NCBI GenBank assembly: GCA_020060545.1
Contig: JAGUZX010000043.1
Coordinates: 21,020-85,019 of the forward strand
DNA from: Desulfovibrio sp.
GTDB lineage: Bacteria; Bacillota; Dethiobacteria; DTU022
Direction of reading: 5' to 3'
Length of the DNA stretch: 64,000 bases
In this document: piece by piece, positions 7,201 through 42,485 of the stretch
How the letters are laid out: each line of letters begins with the position of its first letter
Position numbering within the stretch: the stretch's first letter is position 1
The notes under the pieces: model-generated
Databases searched by the model: none
What the model was told of the DNA's origin: nothing
The model's input: only the letters and a program-made list of their open reading frames with translations
Translations under genes and position numbers: made by a program

Positions 7201-8100
7201 ATGGCAAAACAGTACGATACGCCAGTCCTGCTATGCGGAAGATATTTTACCTTACAGGAGTTGCTGGAGATCCGGGAAACGGCGCGCATGTTCCCGAAAC
7301 TGAGCCGCGCTGAGCTGGCGAATACACTCTGTGAGAACTTGGATTGGGTAACGCCGACCGGTAAGTACAAGACAGCCTCATGTCTACAGCTTTTAGAAAA
7401 ACTTGAAGGGCAAGGCTTGATTGACCTGCCGGCTAAGCTGGAGTACAAGAGCGGCGATAAAAATGGGATCGGCTTTGGGCCGCAGACGGCGCCTGCTTCG
7501 CTGCTTGAAGGCCGGGTAGCCGACCTTGAGCCCATCGCCCTTGAGCCGGTGAGAGACCGAAGTGAACTTCGGCTCTGGAACGAGTATGTGCATCGCTACC
7601 ATGAGTTGGGCTACAAGCGGCCCTTTGGGGCCCATCAGCGCTACTTCATCGTTTCTGCTGCCGGGTCTTTAGGATGCCTTCTGTTTGCTGCTGCCGCCTG
7701 GGCGCTTCAAGCCCGCGACGAGTGGATTGGGTGGAGCGAAGTTGACCGCAGCCTGCGCCTGAACTTAATTGTAAACAACACCCGCCTGCTGATCTTTCCC
7801 TGGGTTAGGGTAAAAAACCTGGCCAGTAAAACCTTATCCCTGGCGGCAAAACGCATCAGTTCTGACTGGCAGGAGCGCTACGGTTACAGCCCGGTATTAC
7901 TGGAGACCTTTGTCGACCCGGAGAAACACCGGGGCACCTGTTACCGGGCGGCCAACTGGATCTTTTTAGGCCAAACCAAAGGGCGCGGCCGCACAGAAAT
8001 GCATAACAAAAGGCCCTTTACGCGCAAATATATTTATGTTTACCCGCTTTGTTGTGACTTCCGCTTTATTCTTTGCGGGAAAGGCGGGGATGTCAGGTGA
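7201..8100 (+). CDS. IS-associated accessory protein (DUF4338-like), orfA of the IS
   Basis: 299 aa. Its stop overlaps the transposase start (GTGA). This family is recurrently found next to DDE transposases. Confidence 0.6.
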   Translation: MAKQYDTPVLLCGRYFTLQELLEIRETARMFPKLSRAELANTLCENLDWVTPTGKYKTASCLQLLEKLEGQGLIDLPAKLEYKSGDKNGIGFGPQTAPASLLEGRVADLEPIALEPVRDRSELRLWNEYVHRYHELGYKRPFGAHQRYFIVSAAGSLGCLLFAAAAWALQARDEWIGWSEVDRSLRLNLIVNNTRLLIFPWVRVKNLASKTLSLAAKRISSDWQERYGYSPVLLETFVDPEKHRGTCYRAANWIFLGQTKGRGRTEMHNKRPFTRKYIYVYPLCCDFRFILCGKGGDVR

Positions 8101-9659
8101 ATGCATCGTTGCCGAAGGTTGTAAAGCGCCATGAACGCAGACAAAAACAGCGTGAGCAGAAGGAGCGGCAAAAAAGGCAGCCGGCTCAGTATCCTTTTGT
8201 TACTGCGTTTGCGAACCGCAAAAGTGACTGCAAAACAGTAGATGAAGAAAAAGAAGCCATCCAGCACACAACGGAGGCCGTACTTGATGTATACATACAG
8301 CTGCTGCCGGGGCTTTTGAAAAAGCTGTCCCTGATACCCGACCCGCGGAACCCCAAGAAAATTAAGCATCAGATAACTGTGCTGATGATCTACGGGATCC
8401 TGATGTTTGTCTTTCAAATCCCCTCCCGGCGCCAGACAAACCGGGAGATGACCACGCCGCAGCTTCATAAAAACCTTAAAGCCGTCTTCGGCGAACTTAA
8501 GGAGATGCCGCATCAGGATACCCTGTACCGCCTGTTGGCAGAGATAGATGTGGATCAGCTCGAGAACATCTACCTAGACATCCTAAGAAGCTTAATCCGC
8601 AAGAAAAAGTTCAAAAACCTGCTTTTAAGTAAGCGCTATCTCGTGGCAGTGGACGGCACACAAAAATACGTCATGAAAGAATGTTGGGACAAACGTTATC
8701 TTAGGCGAAAATTTCGCGGCAAAGACGGCAAATACCAGTATTATGCATACGTTTTAGAAGCGGTTTTAATCTTTTCAAACGGCATGGTGCTGCCTTTGAT
8801 GAGCGAATTTCTGGAGAACACCAAGGCGCTGGAAAGAATCGAGGACGACTTGGAATGGAAACAAGATTGCGAGTTGAAAGCATTCCACCGGCTGGCCAAA
8901 CGGCTGAAGAAAGAGTTTCCGAAACTGCCGCTCACCCTGCTTTTAGACGGGTTGTATGCGAACGGTCCCGTTATGAAAGTTTGCTTAAAGAATAAGTGGG
9001 ACTATATGATCGTTTTAAAAGACGGCTCCCTTGCCTGCGTTTGGCAGGAAGTCAAAGGACTGATGCGCCTAGATACCAAAGGAGAACACCGCTGTAAAAA
9101 AGTATGGCAGGGCCGTAGGCAAATCTTTAGATGGGTAAACGGCATCGAATATGAATATGGTCTGGGCAGAGGTAAAAAAGTGCTGACCATCAATGTGGTG
9201 ATCTGTAACGAAAGCTGGAAAGAAACCGATAGAAAGGGCAATATGGTGGGAAAAACCGGCCATCACGCCTGGATTTCCAGCGTGCCGCTGAACCACAAAA
9301 ATGTCTATGAACGCTGCAATCTGGCGGCCCGGAAACGCTGGTCGCACGAGAACAATATTCTAAAAGAAAAGCATCATGGTTACCACTATGAACACATCTT
9401 TGCCTATGACTTCGATGCGATGCGGGGTTATCACTACCTTATGCATATAGCCCGCATGTTAAATGAACTGATGCTTCATTCAATTAACCTGATCGAAGAG
9501 GTCAAGACAGTCGGCATCCAGGCATTCCTGCGTAAATTTCGCGAAGTTATGATCCACAGGGAGCTCGATACAAAGCAGCTTCGCCTGTTGTCAGAATCCC
9601 CGGGACAGTTGCGGCTGGTGCAGGAAGAAAACTGGCAAACGAACTGGCCGGCGGCATAA
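8097..9659 (+). CDS. DDE transposase, IS4-like
   Basis: LVAVDGTQ (first Asp) and a C-terminal R-x3-E-x6-K (RKRWSHENNILKEK) resembling the IS4 Y(2)R(3)E(6)K motif. ~520 aa. GTG start is coupled to the upstream ORF. Confidence 0.75.
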   Translation: MNASLPKVVKRHERRQKQREQKERQKRQPAQYPFVTAFANRKSDCKTVDEEKEAIQHTTEAVLDVYIQLLPGLLKKLSLIPDPRNPKKIKHQITVLMIYGILMFVFQIPSRRQTNREMTTPQLHKNLKAVFGELKEMPHQDTLYRLLAEIDVDQLENIYLDILRSLIRKKKFKNLLLSKRYLVAVDGTQKYVMKECWDKRYLRRKFRGKDGKYQYYAYVLEAVLIFSNGMVLPLMSEFLENTKALERIEDDLEWKQDCELKAFHRLAKRLKKEFPKLPLTLLLDGLYANGPVMKVCLKNKWDYMIVLKDGSLACVWQEVKGLMRLDTKGEHRCKKVWQGRRQIFRWVNGIEYEYGLGRGKKVLTINVVICNESWKETDRKGNMVGKTGHHAWISSVPLNHKNVYERCNLAARKRWSHENNILKEKHHGYHYEHIFAYDFDAMRGYHYLMHIARMLNELMLHSINLIEEVKTVGIQAFLRKFREVMIHRELDTKQLRLLSESPGQLRLVQEENWQTNWPAA

Positions 9660-10107: not shown

Positions 10108-12186
10108 TTGAATATTCTAGTTGTTGACCGCAATGAAATATTCCCGGATCTTCTCAAAAAGGTCCTGGTTGAAGACAAAAAATGGAACATTATTACCTGC
10201 TCCTCGGGGCTGGTAACGCTGAAGCTCATTCAAAAATTCACTCCCGATATGCTGATCATGGATCTCAACCTGCCCGATATCGACAGCTTTGAAATGCTAA
10301 GCAAGCTGAAAAGCTTCAGCCGGGAGATCTATACGCTGGTTTTAATCGACAAACTGGAGTACGGGAAGCTTGAGCAGGCGCTTTTAGTCGGCATTGACGA
10401 CTATGTGGTGAAACCGATCGAACAAAAAGAGATGATCGCGCGGATCAAGAAAGCGATCTGGTCCAGTTCCCGGAGAAGCGCCCCGGGGATGGACAGGGAG
10501 GCGGGCATCCCTAAGCCCTGGGCGCTGGACGAAGAGCTGCCGGGGGTCAACCATATCATCATCTATCCCAATACCGCCTCCAAAATCCAAGAAACACGGG
10601 GGGAAGCTGCGGCAACCGGGCTGGAAAACGCCGGCGGGACGGATTTTCTAAAAACGGCGCGCGCTGCCGCAGCTGAAATAAACCCTGACGCGGCCGGGCA
10701 TGTGCAAAAGGACAATCCGCCGGTGAAGAGCGCTTCAACCTATACCTTCGGGTTAGTTAAACCGGTTGGTTTAAGCGGAGCGGATGCCGGCCAAACAGCA
10801 GTTTGCGATCCCCCGCCGGAAATCGCCGGCTTAACCCGCTCCGCGATAACTAATGCTCCTGTAGAAACGGATTCTTTTAGCGGCCCGGGTAGCCGGGGTG
10901 AAGCGGCGCCGGCTGAAGCTGAGCCCAAAAGCTGCGGCCGTAATTTGGCCGAAGAAGAAAAGGCCGATCCGCCAGGGTATCTTGAGTGGCCCGGCGAGGA
11001 CGAGTTCAATACCCGCCTGAACACAGGCGGCGGTACGGGGGGCGCGGCGGCCGGAACCGAAAACGCCGGCGGTATTCCTTTTCGAAAAGAGGCCGCGTTT
11101 TTTTCGGCGGGAGCAGCGCCTGCCGCAAGCCGGGATCGTGAAGGCGGCGCGGCGCCGGAGCGTGACCCGTCATATTTCTTTGGTAAACCGGTACGGATGG
11201 ACAGGGCAGGTGAGCCGGCAGAACCGGGACCGGATCGCCTGGAACCTCCCGATGCGTTAAAAGTGGAAGCCGATTTATTACAGCCGGGAGAGTCGAGCGC
11301 TCAGGAAAAACCAAAACCTTGGCGAAGCGCCGGCAGCGTCACGGGAGAGGCAGGCGCAGGAAAGCAAAGCGCCGGGCCCCTTTCTGCCGGCAAAGAGAGC
11401 GGCGCTTATACGGCGGAAGATAAACCCGGCGAAGAGCGATCCAGTGATCGCGGTTTTGCGGCAGAGGGCCTTGCAACCTATTCCTTTGGGTTAAAGCAGG
11501 CGGGAAAATCCAGTCAAGCCGAGGACTGGCCGGCGGTCTCTAAAAGCCGGGCCTACGCCAGGCCTCCGCTGGGCGGCAAAGAGAAAAAGAAGAAACAACC
11601 GGCCGTCGTGAGGATTTTGGGCAACATTTTTTTTGCCGGCTTGATGGTGATGATGGTGACCCTGGCTTTTTTCCTGGTCCAAAGCAGAATGGCCGGAGGC
11701 CCGCCGTCGGTGTTTGGCCACCAGTTGTATGTGGTGCTCAGCGGCAGCATGAACCCCGCTTTTAGCACGGGGAGCCTGGCTTTCGTCTGCCCGATTGAGC
11801 CCGAAAATGTTAAAGTAGGCGATATTATTACTTTTAAAAGCTCGCCGGTCGGCAAAACCCTTACCACTCACCGCGTAGTGGAAATCGACGGCGAAGACGG
11901 GCTTAGTTTTGTGACACGGGGTGACGCAAACCGGGTCAACGACCCCAACCCGGTTCCGGCGGAAAATGTGATCGGAAAGGTAAACGGTGCCATCCCTTAC
12001 CTGGGGTATCTGCTGGATTTCGCCAAAACCAGAAACGGGCTGCTTTTCCTGGTGGTGGTGCCGGGACTGCTGGTGATTGCCTTCGAGTTGCGCAGCCTGT
12101 TCCGGTATGCGGTTGAAAACCAAAAGCAGAAAGAGCTGCAAAAGGGAGGCGGTTTATATGCCGGACGGGTGGTGGATCAGCAATGA
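10108..12186 (+). CDS. Response-regulator receiver domain fused through a ~380-aa low-complexity linker and a TM helix to a SipW-type (archaeal/ER-type) signal peptidase I
   Basis: N-terminal REC domain (phospho-acceptor D in LIMDLNLPD, K in DYVVKP). An Ala/Gly/Pro/Glu-rich linker spans ~aa 120-500. TM segment VVRILGNIFFAGLMVMMVTLAFF. C-terminal S26 domain with catalytic SGSMNP (Ser), TTHRV (His) and a GDAN box. TTG start. Confidence 0.85.
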   Translation: MNILVVDRNEIFPDLLKKVLVEDKKWNIITCSSGLVTLKLIQKFTPDMLIMDLNLPDIDSFEMLSKLKSFSREIYTLVLIDKLEYGKLEQALLVGIDDYVVKPIEQKEMIARIKKAIWSSSRRSAPGMDREAGIPKPWALDEELPGVNHIIIYPNTASKIQETRGEAAATGLENAGGTDFLKTARAAAAEINPDAAGHVQKDNPPVKSASTYTFGLVKPVGLSGADAGQTAVCDPPPEIAGLTRSAITNAPVETDSFSGPGSRGEAAPAEAEPKSCGRNLAEEEKADPPGYLEWPGEDEFNTRLNTGGGTGGAAAGTENAGGIPFRKEAAFFSAGAAPAASRDREGGAAPERDPSYFFGKPVRMDRAGEPAEPGPDRLEPPDALKVEADLLQPGESSAQEKPKPWRSAGSVTGEAGAGKQSAGPLSAGKESGAYTAEDKPGEERSSDRGFAAEGLATYSFGLKQAGKSSQAEDWPAVSKSRAYARPPLGGKEKKKKQPAVVRILGNIFFAGLMVMMVTLAFFLVQSRMAGGPPSVFGHQLYVVLSGSMNPAFSTGSLAFVCPIEPENVKVGDIITFKSSPVGKTLTTHRVVEIDGEDGLSFVTRGDANRVNDPNPVPAENVIGKVNGAIPYLGYLLDFAKTRNGLLFLVVVPGLLVIAFELRSLFRYAVENQKQKELQKGGGLYAGRVVDQQ

Positions 12187-12761
12187 GGTATAAGCTAATT
12201 CTAAGCATCGTCGTTTTGCTGCTGGCCGTTTCCCTTGTCAGCGGCGCCACCACCGCCTGGTTCTCCGACCAGGCGGTTATAGATCCCAATATATTTACCG
12301 TTACTGTCAGCTCGCAAAAAGACAGCGCCTGGGGCGACGGGACAGTCTATCATGCCACGAATCACCGCTATTTTGAATTTACCAAAAGCCAGCTCCTGGA
12401 GACCGGCGGGCGGCAGGCCGACCTTGTGCAGGGGCCGGACGGCAATAAAAAGGTGCTGGGCAAAGTCACGGTTTGGATTGAAACGGTCAGCGGCGTGCAA
12501 ACTTTGTGTGTCAAGTTTGACACCACCGGATACGGCTTGATCGAAAAAACCGATGTTTATGCGGGGCTGCCTTCGGCGGGCAATCCGCCCAACAGCCCCG
12601 GGAAGTATGGGTCGCACCGCACGTATTACGGCAACACGGTAACGATATCCCTGCATCACGATATCACCAGGATCAATGACGGCGGCGCGGGGGTGAGCAT
12701 TTCCCAACTGGGCGGCAGCACCTTAATCCGCATCGCCGCCCATGCCGATGTTTATCACTAG
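12183..12761 (+). CDS. TasA/camelysin (peptidase M73)-like secreted protein with SipW-cognate signal peptide
   Basis: Signal peptide followed by ATTAWFSD (the AxFxD SipW-cognate motif). ATGA overlap with the sipW-fusion stop indicates translational coupling. 192 aa. Confidence 0.8.
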   Translation: MRYKLILSIVVLLLAVSLVSGATTAWFSDQAVIDPNIFTVTVSSQKDSAWGDGTVYHATNHRYFEFTKSQLLETGGRQADLVQGPDGNKKVLGKVTVWIETVSGVQTLCVKFDTTGYGLIEKTDVYAGLPSAGNPPNSPGKYGSHRTYYGNTVTISLHHDITRINDGGAGVSISQLGGSTLIRIAAHADVYH

Positions 12762-12877
12762 GTGCCAAAACTGATCGCATCACGCCAAGACCGGCGATGT
12801 GATCGTTTGCGAGATTTTCGAGAGGGGGGAATAAAGCAACGCAGCATGATCTTGCCCTAAAACTCGCCTAAATTAAC

Positions 12878-12960
12878 GATAATGGCAAACCTGCCGCAAG
12901 GCGGGGACGCAAAGCCAAGGGCCTTTCGCAAGGATGGCAGCCTGGCCGCCGGGGGAAAAA
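12878..12960 (+). ncRNA. c-di-GMP-I (GEMM) riboswitch, copy 1
   Basis: GGCAAACC-UGCC-GCAA(tetraloop)-GGCGGGGACGCAAAGCC followed by a P2 region. It matches the invariant GEMM core (…GGCAAACC…GNRA…GGGACGCAAAGCC…) of the V. cholerae Vc2 aptamer. It lies 25 nt upstream of the RBS of the second TasA-like gene. Confidence 0.8.
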
Positions 12961-12986
12961 GATAAGTGTAAATGGAGGGAGCAAAA

Positions 12987-13604
12987 ATGAATCGAAAAGT
13001 AATGATGAGCGTCCTGGTGATCCTGATGGCCACGGCGGCCGTGGCCGGCGCCACCATGGCCTGGTTTACCGACACGGCAACAGTTGAACCCAACACTTTC
13101 GTGGCGGGGACATTGAAAATCAGGGCCAACGAGGTGTTCAATTGGGCGGATCAAACCAGGCCCAATTGGAACCCCGGGGACTGTGACCAAAAGGAAATTA
13201 CCCTTGAAGTGACGGGGACCAAGTCGGTCTATCTCCGGGCCCGGATTACGGAAACATGGACCATGGTCGGTGCAAGCACGGTAACTTACACCAGGCGGAA
13301 TGCGCCGAACATCACCTGGAAAGTGAACGGACAACCCTGGAACCATGACGGCGCCTGGCAGTTGATCACCATCGACGGCGTTGATTACTGGTTCTATAAA
13401 GGCCCCGTTGACGCCAAACTGGCCTCGGGAGCGCAATTGCTGGTTCTTTCGGAGGTCTGCCTGGATGGAGCGGCCACGGGCAACGACTACCAGGGGGCTA
13501 CGTATACGCTGGCCATTTCTTTTGAAGCGGTTCAGACCACGAACCAGGCGGTAAACGATGTATGGGGATACAAGTTCGAAGGCGGTTCATGGGTGCCCAG
13601 ATAG
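12987..13604 (+). CDS. TasA/camelysin-like secreted protein 2 with SipW-cognate signal peptide
   Basis: ATG 6 nt after GGAGGGAG. Signal peptide followed by ATMAWFTD. 205 aa. Paralogous to 12183..12761. Confidence 0.8.
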   Translation: MNRKVMMSVLVILMATAAVAGATMAWFTDTATVEPNTFVAGTLKIRANEVFNWADQTRPNWNPGDCDQKEITLEVTGTKSVYLRARITETWTMVGASTVTYTRRNAPNITWKVNGQPWNHDGAWQLITIDGVDYWFYKGPVDAKLASGAQLLVLSEVCLDGAATGNDYQGATYTLAISFEAVQTTNQAVNDVWGYKFEGGSWVPR

Positions 13605-13741: not shown

Positions 13742-14407
13742 ATGCAAATGCAAAAATTCGTTCCGGCGATCATCAGTTTAGGGATAATGCTGGCTCTGGC
13801 CGGCCTGGTCCTGCTCATCCAACCTTACTATACGCTTGCCCAGGAAGACCATCCGTGCCGGATCACGGTTACCCCGCCGGAGGGCCGTTTTGCGATTGGG
13901 AATATGAATCCGGGTGACACGGCAAGTAAAAGCTTCACCGTGACCAAGGTCGGAGAGGCTCCTGCCTATCTTTACCTGAGGCAGGAATGGCTGCAGGGAA
14001 ACCCCCTCCCGGGTATGCCGGGAGATCTTTACAGCCAGCTCGTCATGGTAATCAGTTACCAGGGACGCCAGATTTACCGGGGCAAGATGAGCGCCCTGCC
14101 GAACCCGGTTAACGTTACCTTAATGACGCTGGGCCGCCCGATCCTGGTCGGCGAGTCGATCCGGCTCGACTGCAGCGTCCACCTTCCGGGGCCGGAGACC
14201 GGCAACGAGTTTCAGGGTTCGAGCGTGGTCACAAGGCTTGTTTTTTATACCGCCTGTTTCGAAGATGAGGAAGTTCCACCGGAGCCTCCGGAGATTGATC
14301 CTCCGGAGCTCCCGCCGACAAACGGCGTATTGCCGATGCTCCTGCTTGCCGCCGGGGTTTCAGTGATTTTCGCGGGGATTGTGCTCAGGAAAAAGGCGGA
14401 GGCGTAA
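13742..14407 (+). CDS. Secreted beta-rich protein with C-terminal LPPTNG-type cell-wall sorting signal (putative fibre anchor)
   Basis: N-terminal signal/TM. Pro-rich stalk (EEVPPEPPEIDPPE) followed by LPPTNG, a hydrophobic stretch and RKKAEA. This is the tripartite architecture of sortase substrates. Confidence 0.65.
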   Translation: MQMQKFVPAIISLGIMLALAGLVLLIQPYYTLAQEDHPCRITVTPPEGRFAIGNMNPGDTASKSFTVTKVGEAPAYLYLRQEWLQGNPLPGMPGDLYSQLVMVISYQGRQIYRGKMSALPNPVNVTLMTLGRPILVGESIRLDCSVHLPGPETGNEFQGSSVVTRLVFYTACFEDEEVPPEPPEIDPPELPPTNGVLPMLLLAAGVSVIFAGIVLRKKAEA

Positions 14408-14714: not shown

Positions 14715-14911
14715 GTTAGTAATCGATCCTATGCGGATGTATCATCCCAAAAAAAACTTGTGACTGGTAATATTTGTTGCAGGAATTTAAGGTTTATTGG
14801 CCAAAATAAGTATATGGATGTTTGGATTGGATGAGCTGTTAATTGAGACCTTAAAGGAGATGATGGCCGGCAAGATCCTGACTGCGAATTCAAGCAAGTA
14901 AAAATCCTGAC

Positions 14912-15000
14912 CGACAAGGCAAACCCGTCGAGAGGCGGGGACGCAAAGCCAAGGGTCTAAAGCCCGATTGACGGGCCATGATCGCCAGGCTACCGAAACA
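14912..15000 (+). ncRNA. c-di-GMP-I (GEMM) riboswitch, copy 2
   Basis: GGCAAACCCGUCGAGAGGCGGGGACGCAAAGCCAAGGGUCUAAAGCC…GGCUACCGAAACAGG. Same core as copies 1 and 3. The downstream GGTCCCTC…GAGGGAC hairpin (15020-15042) can sequester the RBS. Confidence 0.8.
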
Positions 15001-15048
15001 GGTTTTATTATTTCGGCTGTCGGTCCCTCACAAAGGAGGGACTTTATT

Positions 15049-16140
15049 TTGAGCAAAATAAGGTTTATTAATAGCATCGTGATCAGCGTTGTGATCGCCC
15101 TGATCCTTTCACTGCCGGGGATTTCAAAAATTACTGCCAGGGAAGATCTGACAATTTCGACTGTGGGCGCCGCGTCAAACGAAGCGGGAGCAGAAGAAGG
15201 CCCGGTGTTGCGGGAAGCAACGGCCGGCCTGCCTGGCGGCCCCGATCAGATTGGCCAGGCGGAAGCGGAAATAAACGGTGGTGCCGGAAACGCACCGGAA
15301 CAAAGTTCAACGCCGGGTTCCAGCCCGGAGCAGGGCGCTGTGCCAAAGCAGGAACTGGCTGCCGGGGAACAGTTGACGGAGAAGTCAACAGGCGCGCCGC
15401 CGCAGGAAGCGGTGAAAAATGAACCGGTCCAGGAGACGGTAAAAAGCGAGCCGGCCCCGCCCCCAACCAAGAGTGAAACGCCGCCGCCTGCCGCGCCGGT
15501 CAGCTTCAGTTGGGGCGCCGCGCAAACCTATCGTTACCGCACGGAGATAGTGTTAACCAACAGCGGAGCGGAAGTTTCACAGGGCGTACTGGTCAGGCTG
15601 CCCCTGCTGGAAAACAGCTCGCCGTATCAAAACACCACCCTCACTTCCATTAACTATGAACCTCTTGAGACCACGGGAAGGACAAGCTCTTTTCATCTCG
15701 GAGACATGCAGCCGGGTGAAACGAAAACGCTAATCGTGGATTATACCATTACGGTGCGCCCCGTTTGGCTCAATTCAACCAATGCGACCGTGGAAAAAGC
15801 AAGGCAGGCTTACCGGGAGTACGCCGGGAGCGGCAACTGCTTTGTTCTGGCGGCCGGTTTTGTAAACCGCAGCCGGGAATTGGGTCTTACCGCGCGGGTG
15901 GTCAACGGGATTGCCAACCCGCAAAGAGGGATATTCGCGCCGGGCTATATCCAAAACCGTCACAGCTGGGCCGAGTTTTATGTCGAAGGGCCGGGTTGGG
16001 TTCCGGTTGACCTTACTTTTCAATATTTCGGGCAGCTGCCCCAGGCTTCCCATATCGTCGAGAACTACGCCGACCAATCGCTGAAGCTCAACTATTTCGG
16101 GGGCAGAGTAAGCGCAGTTTGGCACACCAGAATCCTGTAA
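15049..16140 (+). CDS. Secreted transglutaminase-like cysteine protease superfamily protein with Pro/Glu-rich spacer
   Basis: TTG start 8 nt after GGAGGG, downstream of the riboswitch. Signal/TM MSKIRFINSIVISVVIALILSL. C-terminal transglutaminase-like core (Cys in GNCFVLAAGF, His in HSWAEFY, Asp in VPVDLT). Confidence 0.7.
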   Translation: MSKIRFINSIVISVVIALILSLPGISKITAREDLTISTVGAASNEAGAEEGPVLREATAGLPGGPDQIGQAEAEINGGAGNAPEQSSTPGSSPEQGAVPKQELAAGEQLTEKSTGAPPQEAVKNEPVQETVKSEPAPPPTKSETPPPAAPVSFSWGAAQTYRYRTEIVLTNSGAEVSQGVLVRLPLLENSSPYQNTTLTSINYEPLETTGRTSSFHLGDMQPGETKTLIVDYTITVRPVWLNSTNATVEKARQAYREYAGSGNCFVLAAGFVNRSRELGLTARVVNGIANPQRGIFAPGYIQNRHSWAEFYVEGPGWVPVDLTFQYFGQLPQASHIVENYADQSLKLNYFGGRVSAVWHTRIL

Positions 16141-42127: not shown

Positions 42128-42192
42128 GCGATCGGATGTGAGAAAAAACAAAAAAAACCATGAAAAATATTAGATTATTTGGAAATCAGTAT

Positions 42193-42220
42193 TGACTACT
42201 GGCAAAAAAACGTGTAATAT
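42193..42220 (+). promoter_or_regulatory. Sigma-A-type promoter driving the riboswitch leader (TTGACT-16-TAATAT)
   Basis: Near-consensus -35 and -10 hexamers ~40 nt upstream of the GEMM aptamer. Confidence 0.5.
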
Positions 42221-42254
42221 GTTTTTTGAAGTAAGTTGATAATGCGAATAAAAC

Positions 42255-42342
42255 TCGTTTCAGGGCAAACCCGTTGAAAAGCGGGGACGCAAAGCCGACA
42301 GGCCTAAAGCGCTACTGCCAGGGCGGCTGGGTTACCGGGCGG
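42255..42342 (+). ncRNA. c-di-GMP-I (GEMM) riboswitch, copy 3
   Basis: CAGGGCAAACCCGUUGAAAAGCGGGGACGCAAAGCCGACAGGCCUAAAGCGCUACUGCCAGGGCGGCUGGGUUACCGGGCGG. Near-identical to the Vc2 consensus (GGCAAACC…GAAA…GGGACGCAAAGCC…GGCCUAAA…GGGUUACCG). Confidence 0.88.
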
Positions 42343-42345
42343 ATC

Positions 42346-42382
42346 AAAAATCCCAAGGAAAACCCTGGGGATTTTTATGTTT
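42346..42382 (+). terminator. Intrinsic terminator forming the riboswitch expression platform
   Basis: AAAAAUCCCAAGG-aaaa-CCCUGGGGAUUUUU hairpin followed by AUGUUUU. Confidence 0.6.
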
Positions 42383-42456
42383 TAGCATCAAACAGGATTG
42401 AGTTTTTTCGAGGTAATTTAGGCTACACTTCTTTTTTCTATAATTTACGACAGTTA

Positions 42457-42485
42457 TTGACAAAATAATCTGTCTGGTTCATAAT
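42457..42485 (+). promoter_or_regulatory. Second sigma-A-type promoter (TTGACA-17-CATAAT) immediately upstream of pilB
   Basis: Consensus -35 and a good -10 hexamer, 40 nt upstream of the pilB RBS (AGGGAGGAG). Confidence 0.5.

What the first reader, a model, noticed from the sequence alone, without database searches (positions are those of the whole stretch)
12878..12960. c-di-GMP-I (GEMM) riboswitch directly upstream of a TasA/camelysin-like gene
The leader of the second TasA-like gene carries the invariant GEMM core (GGCAAACC, GNRA-capped P1, GGGACGCAAAGCC). Two more copies are in this window (14912-15000 and 42255-42342). This suggests that matrix-fibre protein production here is switched by c-di-GMP at the RNA level. 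To my knowledge this has not been described for SipW/TasA systems; Bacillus tasA is under SinR/Spo0A control.
Basis: partly seen in the sequence, partly recalled or inferred. Interest (0 to 1): 0.8.

Follow-up and report, generated by a model that had tools for sequence, protein, structure and literature searches.

The report
c-di-GMP riboswitch gating a TasA-like gene
A genuine c-di-GMP-sensing RNA switch sits inside a SipW/TasA-type biofilm-fibre gene cluster just before the second fibre-subunit gene, and the same arrangement recurs in about 37 of 80 related clusters from anaerobic Firmicutes, a link I could not find described in the literature.

Summary
Rfam finds GEMM-clan aptamers at 12875-12954 (70.5 bits), 14908-14997 and 42254-42339. 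The focal copy scores best on the 'c-di-GMP-I-GGC' variant model, but it is not that variant. It has the canonical ligand triad (G12884, A12911, C12949) and the C44/G83 tertiary pair. It probably scores there because its P3 is short and lacks a tetraloop receptor.

It lies inside a REC-SipW / TasA-like 1 / aptamer / TasA-like 2 / sortase-signal protein cluster. In 80 related loci, about 37 carry an aptamer at the same internal position, 19-60 nt before a TasA-family start codon and always on the gene's strand. Three of these are cultured isolates.

No terminator follows the aptamer. In 9 of 35 loci there is no room for a promoter, so the element is intercistronic. The Shine-Dalgarno region is specifically complementary to aptamer strands (P3 5' strand/loop or J3/1-P1 3' end) and not to control segments. 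This predicts a translational ON switch.

For the window copy itself the direction is not settled, because its SD pairs best with a non-conserved 5' flank.

Ten literature searches found no prior description. Verdict: an ordinary riboswitch class with a new, conserved regulatory target.

The parts
10108..12186 (+). REC-SipW fusion protein: an N-terminal response-regulator receiver domain, a long low-complexity linker, and a C-terminal SipW-type signal peptidase I. First gene of the cluster.
   Evidence: Pfam Response_reg 60.3 bits, residues 3-114. TIGR02228 sigpep_I_arch 127.3 bits (cut-off 51.85) and the SipW model NF046067 at E 1.3e-42, residues 502-675. REC-SipW or SipW occupies the same position in related loci.
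12183..12761 (+). TasA-like protein 1 (192 aa), carrying a SipW-dependent signal peptide.
   Evidence: TIGR04088 25.9 bits (cut-off 19); Peptidase_M73 only 17.2 bits, below cut-off. A TasA-family ORF holds this position in related loci.
12773..12804 (+). Strong hairpin after the stop codon of TasA-like 1, followed by a weak U-rich tract (GUUUGCGAGAUUUU). It could be a leaky terminator or a stabilising hairpin.
   Evidence: Formed in both the free and the aptamer-enforced folds of 12762-13001. The consensus terminator scan does not call it.
12863..12869 (+). CUCGCCU, a window-specific candidate anti-SD just 5' of the aptamer.
   Evidence: It pairs with the SD at probability 0.83-0.99 in the free ensemble and 0.40-0.91 with the aptamer enforced; duplex -9.6 kcal/mol. 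5' flank:SD complementarity is not conserved across the family (P=0.87).
12875..12954 (+). c-di-GMP-I (GEMM-I) aptamer of the receptor-less short-P3 type. P1 is 12877-12878 paired with 12950-12951. The G20-equivalent is 12884. P2 is 12885-12910 with a GCAA loop. The C44-equivalent is 12908 and the A47-equivalent is 12911. P3 is 12914-12946 with a GCAA loop. The G83-equivalent is 12940 and the C92-equivalent is 12949.
   Evidence: RF03167 70.5 bits, E 1.1e-14. P2 covaries at 5 pairs. P3 covaries at 3 pairs, and the triad is G-A-C. The G20-to-A47 spacing is 27 nt, as in Vc2 and Vc1 (PMC4744006).
12922..12927 (+). CCUUUC in the P3 5' strand, a candidate anti-SD embedded in the aptamer.
   Evidence: It can form 6 bp (2 G-U) with GGAGGG 12974-12979; the conformer carrying this pairing is -28.2 kcal/mol against -26.9 for the ligand-free aptamer fold. 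The equivalent segment shows locus-specific complementarity to the SD region in the family (P=0.003).
12974..12989 (+). Shine-Dalgarno GGAGGG (12974-12979) and the probable start codon ATG (12987-12989) of TasA-like 2, within the conserved AAAUGGAGG context.
   Evidence: Sequence. The context is conserved in related leaders.
12987..13604 (+). TasA-like protein 2 (205 aa), the gene the riboswitch is placed to control.
13742..14407 (+). P221, a conserved cluster protein with an N-terminal membrane/signal segment and a C-terminal LPPTN + hydrophobic stretch + RKK tail (a sortase-type sorting signal). Candidate cell-wall anchor.
   Evidence: No Pfam or NCBIfam hit. Homologues follow the TasA-like genes in most loci. 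Most full-length homologues end in (L/M/I)P(K/R/P)T(G/D/E) + TM + basic tail.
14908..14997 (+). Second c-di-GMP-I aptamer (receptor-bearing type), upstream of the transglutaminase-like gene.
   Evidence: RF01051 79.4 bits. Single or tandem aptamers precede TGase-like genes in L012, L018, L035, L084 and L085.
15022..15043 (+). Terminator-like hairpin plus U-tract that also contains the SD of the transglutaminase-like gene. Its 5' strand overlaps the 3' strand of a long P1 (14909-14916 paired with 15016-15023).
   Evidence: Terminator scan. Fold of 14905-15065 at -62.2 kcal/mol, z -4.08.
15049..16140 (+). Secreted transglutaminase-core protein; the probable start is TTG at 15049.
   Evidence: Pfam Transglut_core 46.4 bits. 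Start inferred from the SD at 15035-15039 and the reading frame.
42254..42339 (+). Third c-di-GMP-I aptamer, 186 nt upstream of a pilB-pilT-pilC type IV pilus cluster (42526 onward).
   Evidence: RF01051 67.6 bits. ORFs; the PilB/PilT/PilC identities are my reading of those translations, and I ran no profile search on them. A promoter-like site lies at 42192-42220.

Best explanation
The element at 12875-12954 is a class I c-di-GMP riboswitch aptamer with the canonical G20/A47/C92 pocket. It lies inside a SipW/TasA-type fibre cluster and controls the second TasA-like gene (12987-13604) separately from the upstream REC-SipW and TasA-like 1 genes. Shown: it is an aptamer, it has the pocket residues, and its placement is conserved. 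Inferred: control acts on translation initiation and is ligand-activated (ON). When the aptamer is unfolded, nucleotides that belong to it base-pair with the Shine-Dalgarno region about 20-60 nt downstream. These nucleotides are the P3 5' strand and loop (CCUUUC at 12922-12927 in the window) or, in other loci, the J3/1-P1 3' strand. c-di-GMP binding locks those nucleotides into the aptamer and frees the ribosome-binding site. High c-di-GMP would then raise production of this fibre subunit, together with the transglutaminase-like protein, whose own riboswitch (14908-14997) has a terminator-based ON design. My confidence by step: c-di-GMP-I aptamer 0.95; it regulates TasA-like 2 0.85; translational rather than transcriptional 0.7; ON direction for the family 0.7; ON direction for this particular copy 0.5.
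For: Aptamer identity:
- Rfam score 70.5 bits, E 1e-14.
- P2 covaries at 5 pairs.
- P3 covaries at 3 pairs, the C44/G83 pair is conserved, and the triad is G-A-C in 34 of 39 TasA-associated copies including the window.
- The triad is defined in PMC4744006 and PMC5888326.

Target:
- 36 of 63 GEMM hits sit 5-60 nt before a TasA-family ORF in the ORF-based count, and about 37 of 80 loci once leaders checked by eye are added. Every hit is on the gene's strand.
- The position is always internal: SipW - TasA - aptamer - TasA - P221.

Translational control:
- No terminator follows the aptamer in the window, and none is visible in the relatives' short A-rich spacers, which I inspected by eye only.
- The spacer median is 32 nt, ending in the conserved AAUGGAGG.
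- In 9 of 35 loci the aptamer starts within 30 nt of the upstream gene's stop codon, so it is intercistronic.
- The same genome does use a terminator after riboswitch 2.

ON direction:
- Matched versus swapped SD regions show locus-specific complementarity to the P3 5' strand/loop (P=0.003) and to the J3/1-P1 3' end (P<0.0002).
- The 5' flank (P=0.87) and P2 (P=0.26) show none. The best site lies within the aptamer's P3 5' strand/loop or J3/1-P1 3' end in 32 of 39 leaders.
- The flanks covary, for example CAUUUUG/CAAAAUG, CGAUU/AAUCG, CAAUU/AAUUG, and CUCCC with a GGGAG SD.
- Riboswitch 2 in the same cluster has a P1 that overlaps its terminator, an ON design.
Against: In the window copy the aptamer:SD pairing is weak (-7.9 kcal/mol, 2 G-U pairs) and is not the dominant ligand-free state in the thermodynamic model. 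Its SD pairs best with CUCGCCU 5' of the aptamer, whether or not the aptamer is folded. That fits no simple ON switch. The fold of the whole leader is no more stable than shuffles (z -0.03). The closest known homologues of TasA-like 2 (L001-L006, L081-L085) lack the aptamer, so no close comparison supports the window's own platform. The permutation test does not correct for phylogenetic relatedness, and the effect is modest (about 1 kcal/mol). The transcription start is unknown. Nothing here shows ligand binding or fibre formation.
Confidence: 0.6

Rival explanations
1. The window copy is a translational OFF switch, or a constitutively damped leader. The SD (GGAGGGAG) pairs with CUCGCCU (12863-12869) just 5' of the aptamer, forming a helix that encloses the aptamer. 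Ligand-induced compaction of the aptamer would stabilise this closing helix and repress TasA-like 2 at high c-di-GMP.
For: With the 5' flank included, the SD is paired to 12865-12869 at probability 0.83-0.99 in the free ensemble and 0.40-0.91 with the aptamer enforced. This is the best SD partner in the window (-9.6 kcal/mol). By eye, CUCGCCU is also complementary to the P2 3' strand AGGCGGG, which would allow a three-state switch.
Against: 5' flank:SD complementarity is not conserved in 39 related leaders (matched -6.5 against swapped -6.9 kcal/mol, P=0.87). SD accessibility hardly changes between free and aptamer-enforced ensembles (0.34 to 0.38, or 0.40 to 0.57), so the model predicts no switching. 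The P2 hairpin forms in every predicted structure. Repressing a matrix subunit at high c-di-GMP runs against the ON design of riboswitch 2 in the same cluster. Whether the flank is transcribed is unknown.
Confidence: 0.15
2. Control is not at translation initiation. The aptamer instead modulates Rho-dependent termination, RNase access or mRNA stability of the tasA2 segment of a longer transcript.
For: No intrinsic terminator follows the aptamer. The element is intercistronic in many loci. A strong hairpin at 12773-12804 precedes it, which would fit a processing or stability role. Translational riboswitches are often coupled to Rho or to mRNA decay (general knowledge).
Against: The locus-specific SD complementarity to aptamer strands is directly explained by SD sequestration. 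The short A-rich spacers (19-60 nt) give little room for other elements. This rival is partly compatible with the main model as a downstream consequence of blocked translation.
Confidence: 0.1
3. The aptamer senses a ligand other than c-di-GMP. This could be 3'3'-cGAMP (GEMM-Ib) or an unknown ligand, as suggested by its best match being the 'c-di-GMP-I-GGC' variant model.
For: The best Rfam model is RF03167 rather than RF01051. Five related TasA-associated aptamers carry A at the G20 position (L009, L035, L044, L051, L024).
Against: The window copy has G at the G20 position (12884), A at the A47 position (12911) and C at the C92 position (12949). This is the canonical c-di-GMP triad (PMC4744006). 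The position that separates the RF03167 consensus (GACGC-G-AA) from RF01051 (GACGC-A-AA) is A in all 39 TasA-associated copies. The higher RF03167 score is most simply explained by the short, receptor-less P3; I did not test this directly.
Confidence: 0.05
4. The aptamer is an evolutionary relic with no present regulatory function in this genome.
For: The closest homologous clusters lack it. The window's expression platform is not clear-cut.
Against: All conserved core, tertiary and ligand positions are intact, and the score of 70.5 bits matches its relatives. Position, strand and spacing match about 37 other loci.
Confidence: 0.03

Closest known systems
c-di-GMP-I (GEMM-I) riboswitches, e.g. 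Vibrio cholerae Vc2 and Vc1, C. difficile Cdi-1 copies, B. thuringiensis Bc1-Bc5 (Rfam RF01051)
   Same: It shares the three-helix junction, the GNRA-capped P2, the ligand triad G20/A47/C92 and the interhelical C44-G83 pair, and it lies in a leader on the sense strand. Like these, it is associated with surface, adhesion and motility genes; the other two copies in the window precede a secreted transglutaminase-like protein and a type IV pilus cluster.
   Different: P3 is short, lacks the CUAAG/UAUG tetraloop receptor and carries a conserved GGGCCUU. The target is a SipW-dependent TasA-family subunit. The element sits inside the cluster and is often intercistronic. No terminator follows it. The characterised Bacillus examples act through terminators (PMC4759541, PMC11218506).
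c-di-GMP-I-GGC variant (Rfam RF03167)
   Same: It is the best-scoring covariance model for the focal copy and for most TasA-associated relatives. The short P3 and the modelled P1 fit this model well.
   Different: The RF03167 consensus has G after GACGC, at the A47 position. The window copy and all 39 relatives examined have A there. I therefore do not file it as this variant. My reading of what 'GGC' stands for is inferred from the two consensus lines and the family name; I could not find a paper that defines it.
B. subtilis tapA-sipW-tasA and B. cereus sipW-tasA / calY matrix-fibre loci
   Same: A SipW-type signal peptidase is encoded next to TasA-family proteins that carry the cognate signal peptide, and the predicted fold is closest to the TasA fibre subunit. 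As in B. cereus, where sipW-tasA is an operon and calY is expressed independently (PMC4292775), the second paralogue is regulated apart from sipW and the first paralogue.
   Different: Regulation in Bacillus is by protein repressors (SinR, AbrB, Spo0A), not by an RNA sensor. Here SipW is fused to a receiver domain. The cluster also encodes a sortase-signal protein (P221) and a riboswitch-controlled transglutaminase-like protein. Sequence similarity to TasA is low: 17-23% identity in the structural alignments, and the Pfam match covers only residues 2-81.
C. perfringens sipW-bsaA (BsaA polymer) locus
   Same: It is a clostridial SipW-dependent TasA homologue that forms an extracellular matrix polymer. 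TasA-like 2 hits the BsaA family model TIGR04090 (E 3.8e-13).
   Different: The score of 49.7 bits is below the model's cut-off of 60. The BsaA paper mentions riboswitches and c-di-GMP only in its reference list (PMC7395162).
Tandem c-di-GMP-I riboswitches upstream of COG1305 transglutaminase-like genes in Bacillota
   Same: Riboswitch 2 (14908-14997) precedes a Transglut_core protein. Relatives have tandem pairs at the same place (L012, L084/85). This matches the enrichment reported in PMC12452182.
   Different: That report does not connect these genes to SipW/TasA clusters, whereas here they are part of the same module. The window has a single copy rather than a tandem pair.

Membership tests
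c-di-GMP-I riboswitch (GEMM-I; Rfam clan CL00126) | Covariance-model score at or above the curated gathering threshold | tested here: met
   RF03167 scores 70.5 bits against a cut-off of 59, E 1.1e-14 over the 64-kb window and 7.1e-17 locally. Two lower-scoring overlapping matches to other families of the same clan were suppressed by clan competition, so the RF01051 score itself was not displayed.
c-di-GMP-I riboswitch (GEMM-I; Rfam clan CL00126) | Three-helix junction (P1, P2, P3) supported by covariation | tested here: met
   In P2, 5 of 8 pairs have compensatory changes across 39 TasA-associated copies. P3 shows GC/AU, CG/UA and AU/CG/GC exchanges at three pairs, and 7-10 of 10 pairs form in every copy. 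P1 is only 2 bp in the model and was not assessed for covariation.
c-di-GMP-I riboswitch (GEMM-I; Rfam clan CL00126) | Ligand-contacting residues G20, A47 and C92 (Vc2 numbering) | tested here: met
   These are G12884, A12911 and C12949. The G20-A47 spacing is 27 nt, as in Vc2 and Vc1 (PMC4744006). The roles of the residues are described in PMC5888326.
c-di-GMP-I riboswitch (GEMM-I; Rfam clan CL00126) | Interhelical Watson-Crick pair C44-G83 between P2 and P3 | tested here: met
   C12908 and G12940 are present. C is conserved in 38 of 39 relatives and G in 36 of 39. PMC4744006 describes the pair as universal.
c-di-GMP-I riboswitch (GEMM-I; Rfam clan CL00126) | GNRA tetraloop on P2 docking into P3 (11-nt receptor in one subtype, plain helix in the other) | tested here: inconclusive
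   A GCAA tetraloop is present at 12896-12899. The CUAAG/UAUG receptor seen in the window's other two copies is absent from P3. From my own knowledge this fits the receptor-less GEMM subtype. Docking cannot be tested here.
c-di-GMP-I riboswitch (GEMM-I; Rfam clan CL00126) | Selective high-affinity binding of c-di-GMP and a ligand-dependent change in gene expression | not testable with these tools
   This needs in-line probing or ITC and reporter assays.
c-di-GMP-I-GGC variant (RF03167) | G in place of A at the A47 position (model consensus GACGC-G-AA against GACGC-A-AA in RF01051) | tested here: not met
   The window has A12911, and all 39 TasA-associated relatives have A. I infer the meaning of 'GGC' from the consensus lines and the name. 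The defining paper was not available and the term is absent from the main text of PMC5737381.
GEMM-Ib (3'3'-cGAMP) riboswitch | A at the G20 position | tested here: not met
   The window has G12884. Five related TasA-associated copies do have A there (L009, L035, L044, L051, L024).
SipW-dependent TasA/CalY/BsaA family matrix protein (downstream gene) | SipW-type signal peptide and Peptidase_M73/TasA homology above curated cut-offs | tested here: met
   TIGR04088 scores 34.9 bits (cut-off 19). PF12389 scores 40.3 bits (cut-off 22.5) but covers only residues 2-81. The subfamily and equivalog models are below their cut-offs: TIGR04090 at 49.7 against 60, and NF046066 TasA at 25.9 against 450.
SipW-dependent TasA/CalY/BsaA family matrix protein (downstream gene) | TasA-like beta-sandwich fold | tested here: met
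SipW-dependent TasA/CalY/BsaA family matrix protein (downstream gene) | Genomic linkage to a SipW signal peptidase | tested here: met
   The SipW domain is encoded at 10108-12186 (TIGR02228, 127.3 bits). SipW lies upstream in most related loci.
SipW-dependent TasA/CalY/BsaA family matrix protein (downstream gene) | Assembly into extracellular fibres by donor-strand exchange | not testable with these tools
   This needs expression and EM or cryo-EM.

The most novel reading that the evidence does not exclude
A distinct sub-lineage of GEMM-I aptamers has a receptor-less short P3 with a conserved GGGCCUU that doubles as an anti-Shine-Dalgarno. It has been recruited across anaerobic Firmicutes (Syntrophomonadaceae, Tissierella, Alkaliphilus, Tepidanaerobacter and many MAGs) as an intercistronic, translational ON switch. 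The switch releases the major TasA-type fibre subunit only at high c-di-GMP. Companion riboswitches on the transglutaminase-like gene and, in some loci, on REC-SipW make the whole fibre pathway a direct RNA-level output of c-di-GMP. A few members carry A20 and may respond to cGAMP instead.
Probability: 0.4. Interest if true: 0.6.

Novelty: new member of a known kind. Interest (0 to 1): 0.5.

Why it matters
c-di-GMP effectors that explain biofilm-matrix control in Gram-positive anaerobes are few. In Bacillus, the model for TasA, matrix genes are run by protein repressors, and c-di-GMP has only a minor known role. A conserved riboswitch placed directly in front of a TasA-type subunit gives a direct, testable link between c-di-GMP and proteinaceous matrix fibres in Clostridia-like bacteria. 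It marks a whole gene module (REC-SipW, two TasA paralogues, a sortase-signal protein and a transglutaminase-like protein) as a c-di-GMP regulon. It also offers culturable test organisms: Tissierella creatinophila DSM 6911, Tissierella sp. P1 and Alkaliphilus pronyensis. The apparent use of the P3 strand as an anti-SD inside a polycistronic mRNA is a compact expression-platform design worth confirming. There is a practical point for annotation too. Rfam's GGC-variant model captures many canonical, A47-bearing c-di-GMP-I aptamers, so automated labels of 'variant ligand specificity' for such hits are unreliable.

Tried and rejected
- **GGC-variant identity.** I considered this because RF03167 scores best. 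I rejected it because the distinguishing position is A, not G, in the window and in all 39 relatives.
- **cGAMP (GEMM-Ib) specificity.** Rejected for the window copy, which has G12884.
- **Intrinsic terminator after the focal aptamer.** None was found by scan or by eye. The GC-rich hairpin in the signal-peptide coding region has no U-tract.
- **Sigma-70 promoter between TasA-like 1 and the aptamer.** None was found. By eye, TTGCCC/TAAATT and TTGCCC/GATAAT have the wrong spacing.
- **5' flank:SD pairing as a conserved mechanism.** Rejected at family level (P=0.87).
- **MAFFT/RNAalifold consensus for P3.** It failed because of a 1-nt register shift. I replaced it with anchoring on the Rfam model boundaries.
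- **Source contig.** The taxon remains unknown; it is a roughly 60% GC Bacillota-like genome.
- **Closer relatives to resolve the window's platform.** L081-L085 lack the aptamer at this position.
- **Definition of 'GGC'.** The PNAS 2017 variant-riboswitch paper is not held, and the NAR 2017 main text lacks the term.
- **GGDEF/EAL genes in the window.** None was found by motif search.
- **B. thuringiensis cspABCDE (Bc3-5) as a precedent.** Those genes encode cell-wall-anchored surface proteins, not TasA-like ones.
Full report
**Observation**

Rfam cmscan at curated gathering thresholds finds three GEMM-clan aptamers on the + strand of the window. They are at 12875-12954 (RF03167 c-di-GMP-I-GGC, 70.5 bits, cut-off 59, E 1.1e-14), 14908-14997 (RF01051, 79.4 bits) and 42254-42339 (RF01051, 67.6 bits) (local rescan). 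This is far beyond chance.

**Which kind of GEMM aptamer**

The focal copy scores best on the 'GGC' variant model, which would imply altered ligand specificity. Comparing the two model consensus lines printed, RF03167 differs from RF01051 at GACGC-G-AA versus GACGC-A-AA.

The ligand contacts in Vc2 are G20, A47 and C92 (PMC4744006; PMC5888326). G20 and A47 are 27 nt apart in both Vc2 and Vc1. In the window, G12884 and A12911 are also 27 nt apart, and C12949 sits in J3/1. The interhelical C44-G83 pair is present as C12908 and G12940. The pocket is therefore the canonical G-A-C one.

All 39 TasA-associated relatives also have A at the A47 position. The high RF03167 score is probably due to the short P3, which lacks the CUAAG/UAUG tetraloop receptor seen in the window's other two copies. 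I therefore file the element as c-di-GMP-I, not as the GGC variant. One caveat: I inferred the meaning of 'GGC' from the consensus lines and the name, because the defining paper was not available.

The G20-equivalent is the first G of GGCAAAC. The G immediately before CAAAC is base-paired.

**Gene context**

On the + strand the cluster runs as follows:
- 10108-12186 encodes a receiver domain fused, through a long low-complexity linker, to a SipW-type signal peptidase.
- 12183-12761 encodes a TasA-like protein recognised mainly by its SipW-type signal peptide.
- The aptamer follows.
- 12987-13604 encodes TasA-like 2 (Peptidase_M73 40.3 bits, TIGR04088 34.9 bits, BsaA-family TIGR04090 below its cut-off).
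- 13742-14407 encodes a 221-aa protein ending in LPPTN + hydrophobic stretch + RKK.
- The second aptamer follows, and then a secreted transglutaminase-core protein.

**Conservation**

An alignment of 33 homologues retrieved 80 loci from one-genome-per-species contigs. Most are Syntrophomonadaceae and other Bacillota MAGs, but they also include Tissierella sp. P1, T. creatinophila DSM 6911 and Alkaliphilus pronyensis.

Rfam at gathering thresholds found 60 GEMM-clan hits in these loci, every one on the strand of the TasA-like gene. I classified the downstream ORFs with profiles built from the window's own proteins. 36 of 63 hits (including the window's) lie 5-60 nt before a TasA-family ORF. With the leaders checked by eye, about 37 of 80 loci have one.

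Gene maps show a fixed module: SipW (or REC-SipW), a TasA-like gene, the aptamer if present, a second TasA-like gene, then a P221-like gene. The aptamer is always inside the cluster, never at its head. Other hits precede the transglutaminase-like gene (often in tandem) or, in L019, L033 and L035, the REC-SipW gene itself.

The closest homologues of TasA-like 2 (L001-L006, L081-L085) keep the module but lack this aptamer, so the element is patchily distributed.

**Structure support**

Across 39 TasA-associated copies, P2 shows compensatory changes at five pairs. MAFFT mis-registered P3. After anchoring on the Rfam model boundaries, P3 forms 7-10 of 10 pairs in every copy, with GC/AU, CG/UA and AU/CG exchanges at three pairs.

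**Expression platform**

No terminator-like site follows the focal aptamer, and none is visible in the relatives' spacers, which I inspected by eye only. The spacer to the start codon is short (median 32 nt, range 19-60), A-rich, and ends in a conserved AAUGGAGG.

In 9 of 35 loci the aptamer begins within 30 nt of the upstream cluster gene's stop codon, and in two it overlaps the gene's end. It must therefore be part of a polycistronic RNA.

The same genome does use a terminator after riboswitch 2. A hairpin at 15022-15043 plus a U-tract contains that gene's SD, and a long P1 (GACCGACA/UGUCGGUC) overlaps the terminator's 5' strand. The fold has z -4.08. That is a transcriptional ON design.

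**Direction of the focal type**

I computed duplex energies between each leader's SD region and segments of its own aptamer, and compared them with SD regions swapped between loci:
- The whole aptamer gives -11.0 against -10.0 kcal/mol (P=0.0006).
- By segment, the signal lies in the P3 5' strand plus loop (P=0.003) and in the J3/1-P1 3' end (P<0.0002).
- The 5' flank (P=0.87) and P2 (P=0.26) serve as internal controls and show nothing.
- The best site is the P3 5' strand/loop or the J3/1-P1 3' end in 32 of 39 leaders.

The flanks covary. Examples are GCCUUCAUUUUGC with ACAAAAUGGAGGG (L017), GCCUUCUUUUGAUG with AAUUAAAAGGAGGA (Tissierella sp. P1), CCGCCGAUU with AAUCGGAGG (L036), GCCGCCAAUU with AAUUGGAGG (A. 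pronyensis), and CCUCUCCCUUU with AAAGGGAGA where the SD itself is GGGAG (L071, L075).

Because the SD partner is made of nucleotides that the folded aptamer needs, ligand binding should free the SD. That is an ON switch acting on translation. The test does not correct for relatedness among loci, and the effect is about 1 kcal/mol.

**The window copy itself**

Here the picture is weaker. CCUUUC (12922-12927) can pair with GGAGGG (12974-12979). The conformer carrying this pairing (-28.2 kcal/mol) is slightly better than the ligand-free aptamer fold (-26.9), but the predicted minimum (-31.8) leaves the SD open.

If 15 or more nt of 5' flank are transcribed, the SD instead pairs with CUCGCCU (12863-12869), both in the free ensemble and with the aptamer enforced. 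That pairing is not conserved. The whole-leader fold is no more stable than shuffles. I therefore give ON only about 0.5 for this copy, keep an OFF or damped-leader rival at 0.15, and put non-translational mechanisms at 0.1.

**Comparison with what is known**

The RNA is an ordinary member of the c-di-GMP-I class. What appears new is the target and the placement.

Ten full-text searches (c-di-GMP riboswitch or GEMM combined with TasA, TasA-like, camelysin, SipW or BsaA) found no paper making the link. The C. perfringens BsaA paper mentions riboswitches and c-di-GMP only in its reference list. The B. thuringiensis triple-tandem riboswitch controls cell-wall-anchored Csp proteins. A 2025 survey reports tandem c-di-GMP-I upstream of COG1305 transglutaminase-like genes in Bacillota. 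That matches riboswitch 2 but does not connect it to SipW/TasA clusters.

The split between SipW plus the first paralogue and a separately controlled second paralogue resembles B. cereus, where sipW-tasA is an operon and calY is expressed independently (PMC4292775). The library searched is limited to open-access papers and preprints, and supplementary gene tables of the GEMM papers could not be checked. 'Undescribed' is therefore a bounded statement.

**Verdict**

The novelty is a new, conserved regulon member for a well-known riboswitch class, with an inferred intercistronic translational ON mechanism that remains to be tested. Interest is moderate.

Noticed in passing
window 10108-12186; also L003, L004, L014, L017, L018, L019, L033, L052: The SipW signal peptidase is fused to an N-terminal response-regulator receiver domain through a long Pro/Ala/Gly/Glu-rich linker. 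The fusion recurs in several related clusters, and in others a separate REC gene sits next to SipW. It suggests phosphorylation-dependent control of fibre-subunit processing. I know of no description of this architecture.
   Followed up: partly
window 13742-14407 and P221-like ORFs in most of L004-L080: A conserved protein of unknown family follows the TasA-like genes and almost always ends in (L/M/I)P(K/R/P)T(G/D/E/N) + hydrophobic stretch + basic tail, which is a sortase-type sorting signal. It may anchor the fibres to the cell wall, a role TapA plays in B. subtilis.
   Followed up: partly
L009:3879-3958, L035:3884-3963, L044:3857-3940, L051:3901-3977 (and the weak L024:3903-3981): These TasA-associated aptamers have A instead of G at the G20 position, which is the signature of cGAMP-responsive or promiscuous GEMM-Ib RNAs. 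Some TasA-type clusters may respond to 3'3'-cGAMP rather than c-di-GMP.
   Followed up: no
window 12875-12954 and about 30 hits in L006-L084: Rfam's RF03167 (GGC variant) model out-scores RF01051 on many aptamers that carry the canonical A47. Clan competition therefore labels ordinary receptor-less c-di-GMP-I aptamers as a ligand-variant family, which is an annotation pitfall.
   Followed up: yes
window 14908-15051: Riboswitch 2 has a long P1 (14909-14916 with 15016-15023) that overlaps a terminator hairpin (15022-15043 plus U-tract). The hairpin also buries the SD of the transglutaminase-like gene, giving a combined transcriptional and translational ON design (z -4.08). The gene probably starts at TTG 15049, not at the mechanical ORF start 14968 inside the aptamer.
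   Followed up: partly
L019:6631-6718, L033:4192-4279, L035:5662-5751: In some relatives a receptor-type c-di-GMP-I aptamer directly precedes the REC-SipW (or REC) gene. There the signal peptidase itself is also under riboswitch control.
   Followed up: no
window 42192-42485: A promoter-like site (TTGACT-17-TAATAT, 42192-42220) precedes the third aptamer. A stronger one (TTGACA-17-CATAAT, 11 of 12 matches, 42457-42485) lies between the aptamer and pilB and could bypass the riboswitch.
   Followed up: no
window 7201-9659: A DruA-like (Druantia) protein (PF14236, E 2.5e-43) and a DDE transposase lie immediately upstream of the fibre cluster. This hints at a mobile or defence-island neighbourhood.
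   Followed up: no
window 12972-12974 and related leaders (L009, L017 and others): An AUG is conserved inside the SD context (AAAUGGAGG). It is in frame with the gene in some loci but not in L007. The conservation is better explained by pairing with the P3 loop (CCUUCAUUU) than by coding.
   Followed up: partly
L053:1551-3360, L068:2287-3179, L080:1555-2910: Some loci carry two or three TasA-like paralogues in a row, each with its own aptamer. In L053 two of the copies are identical, pointing to recent duplication of aptamer-gene units.
   Followed up: no
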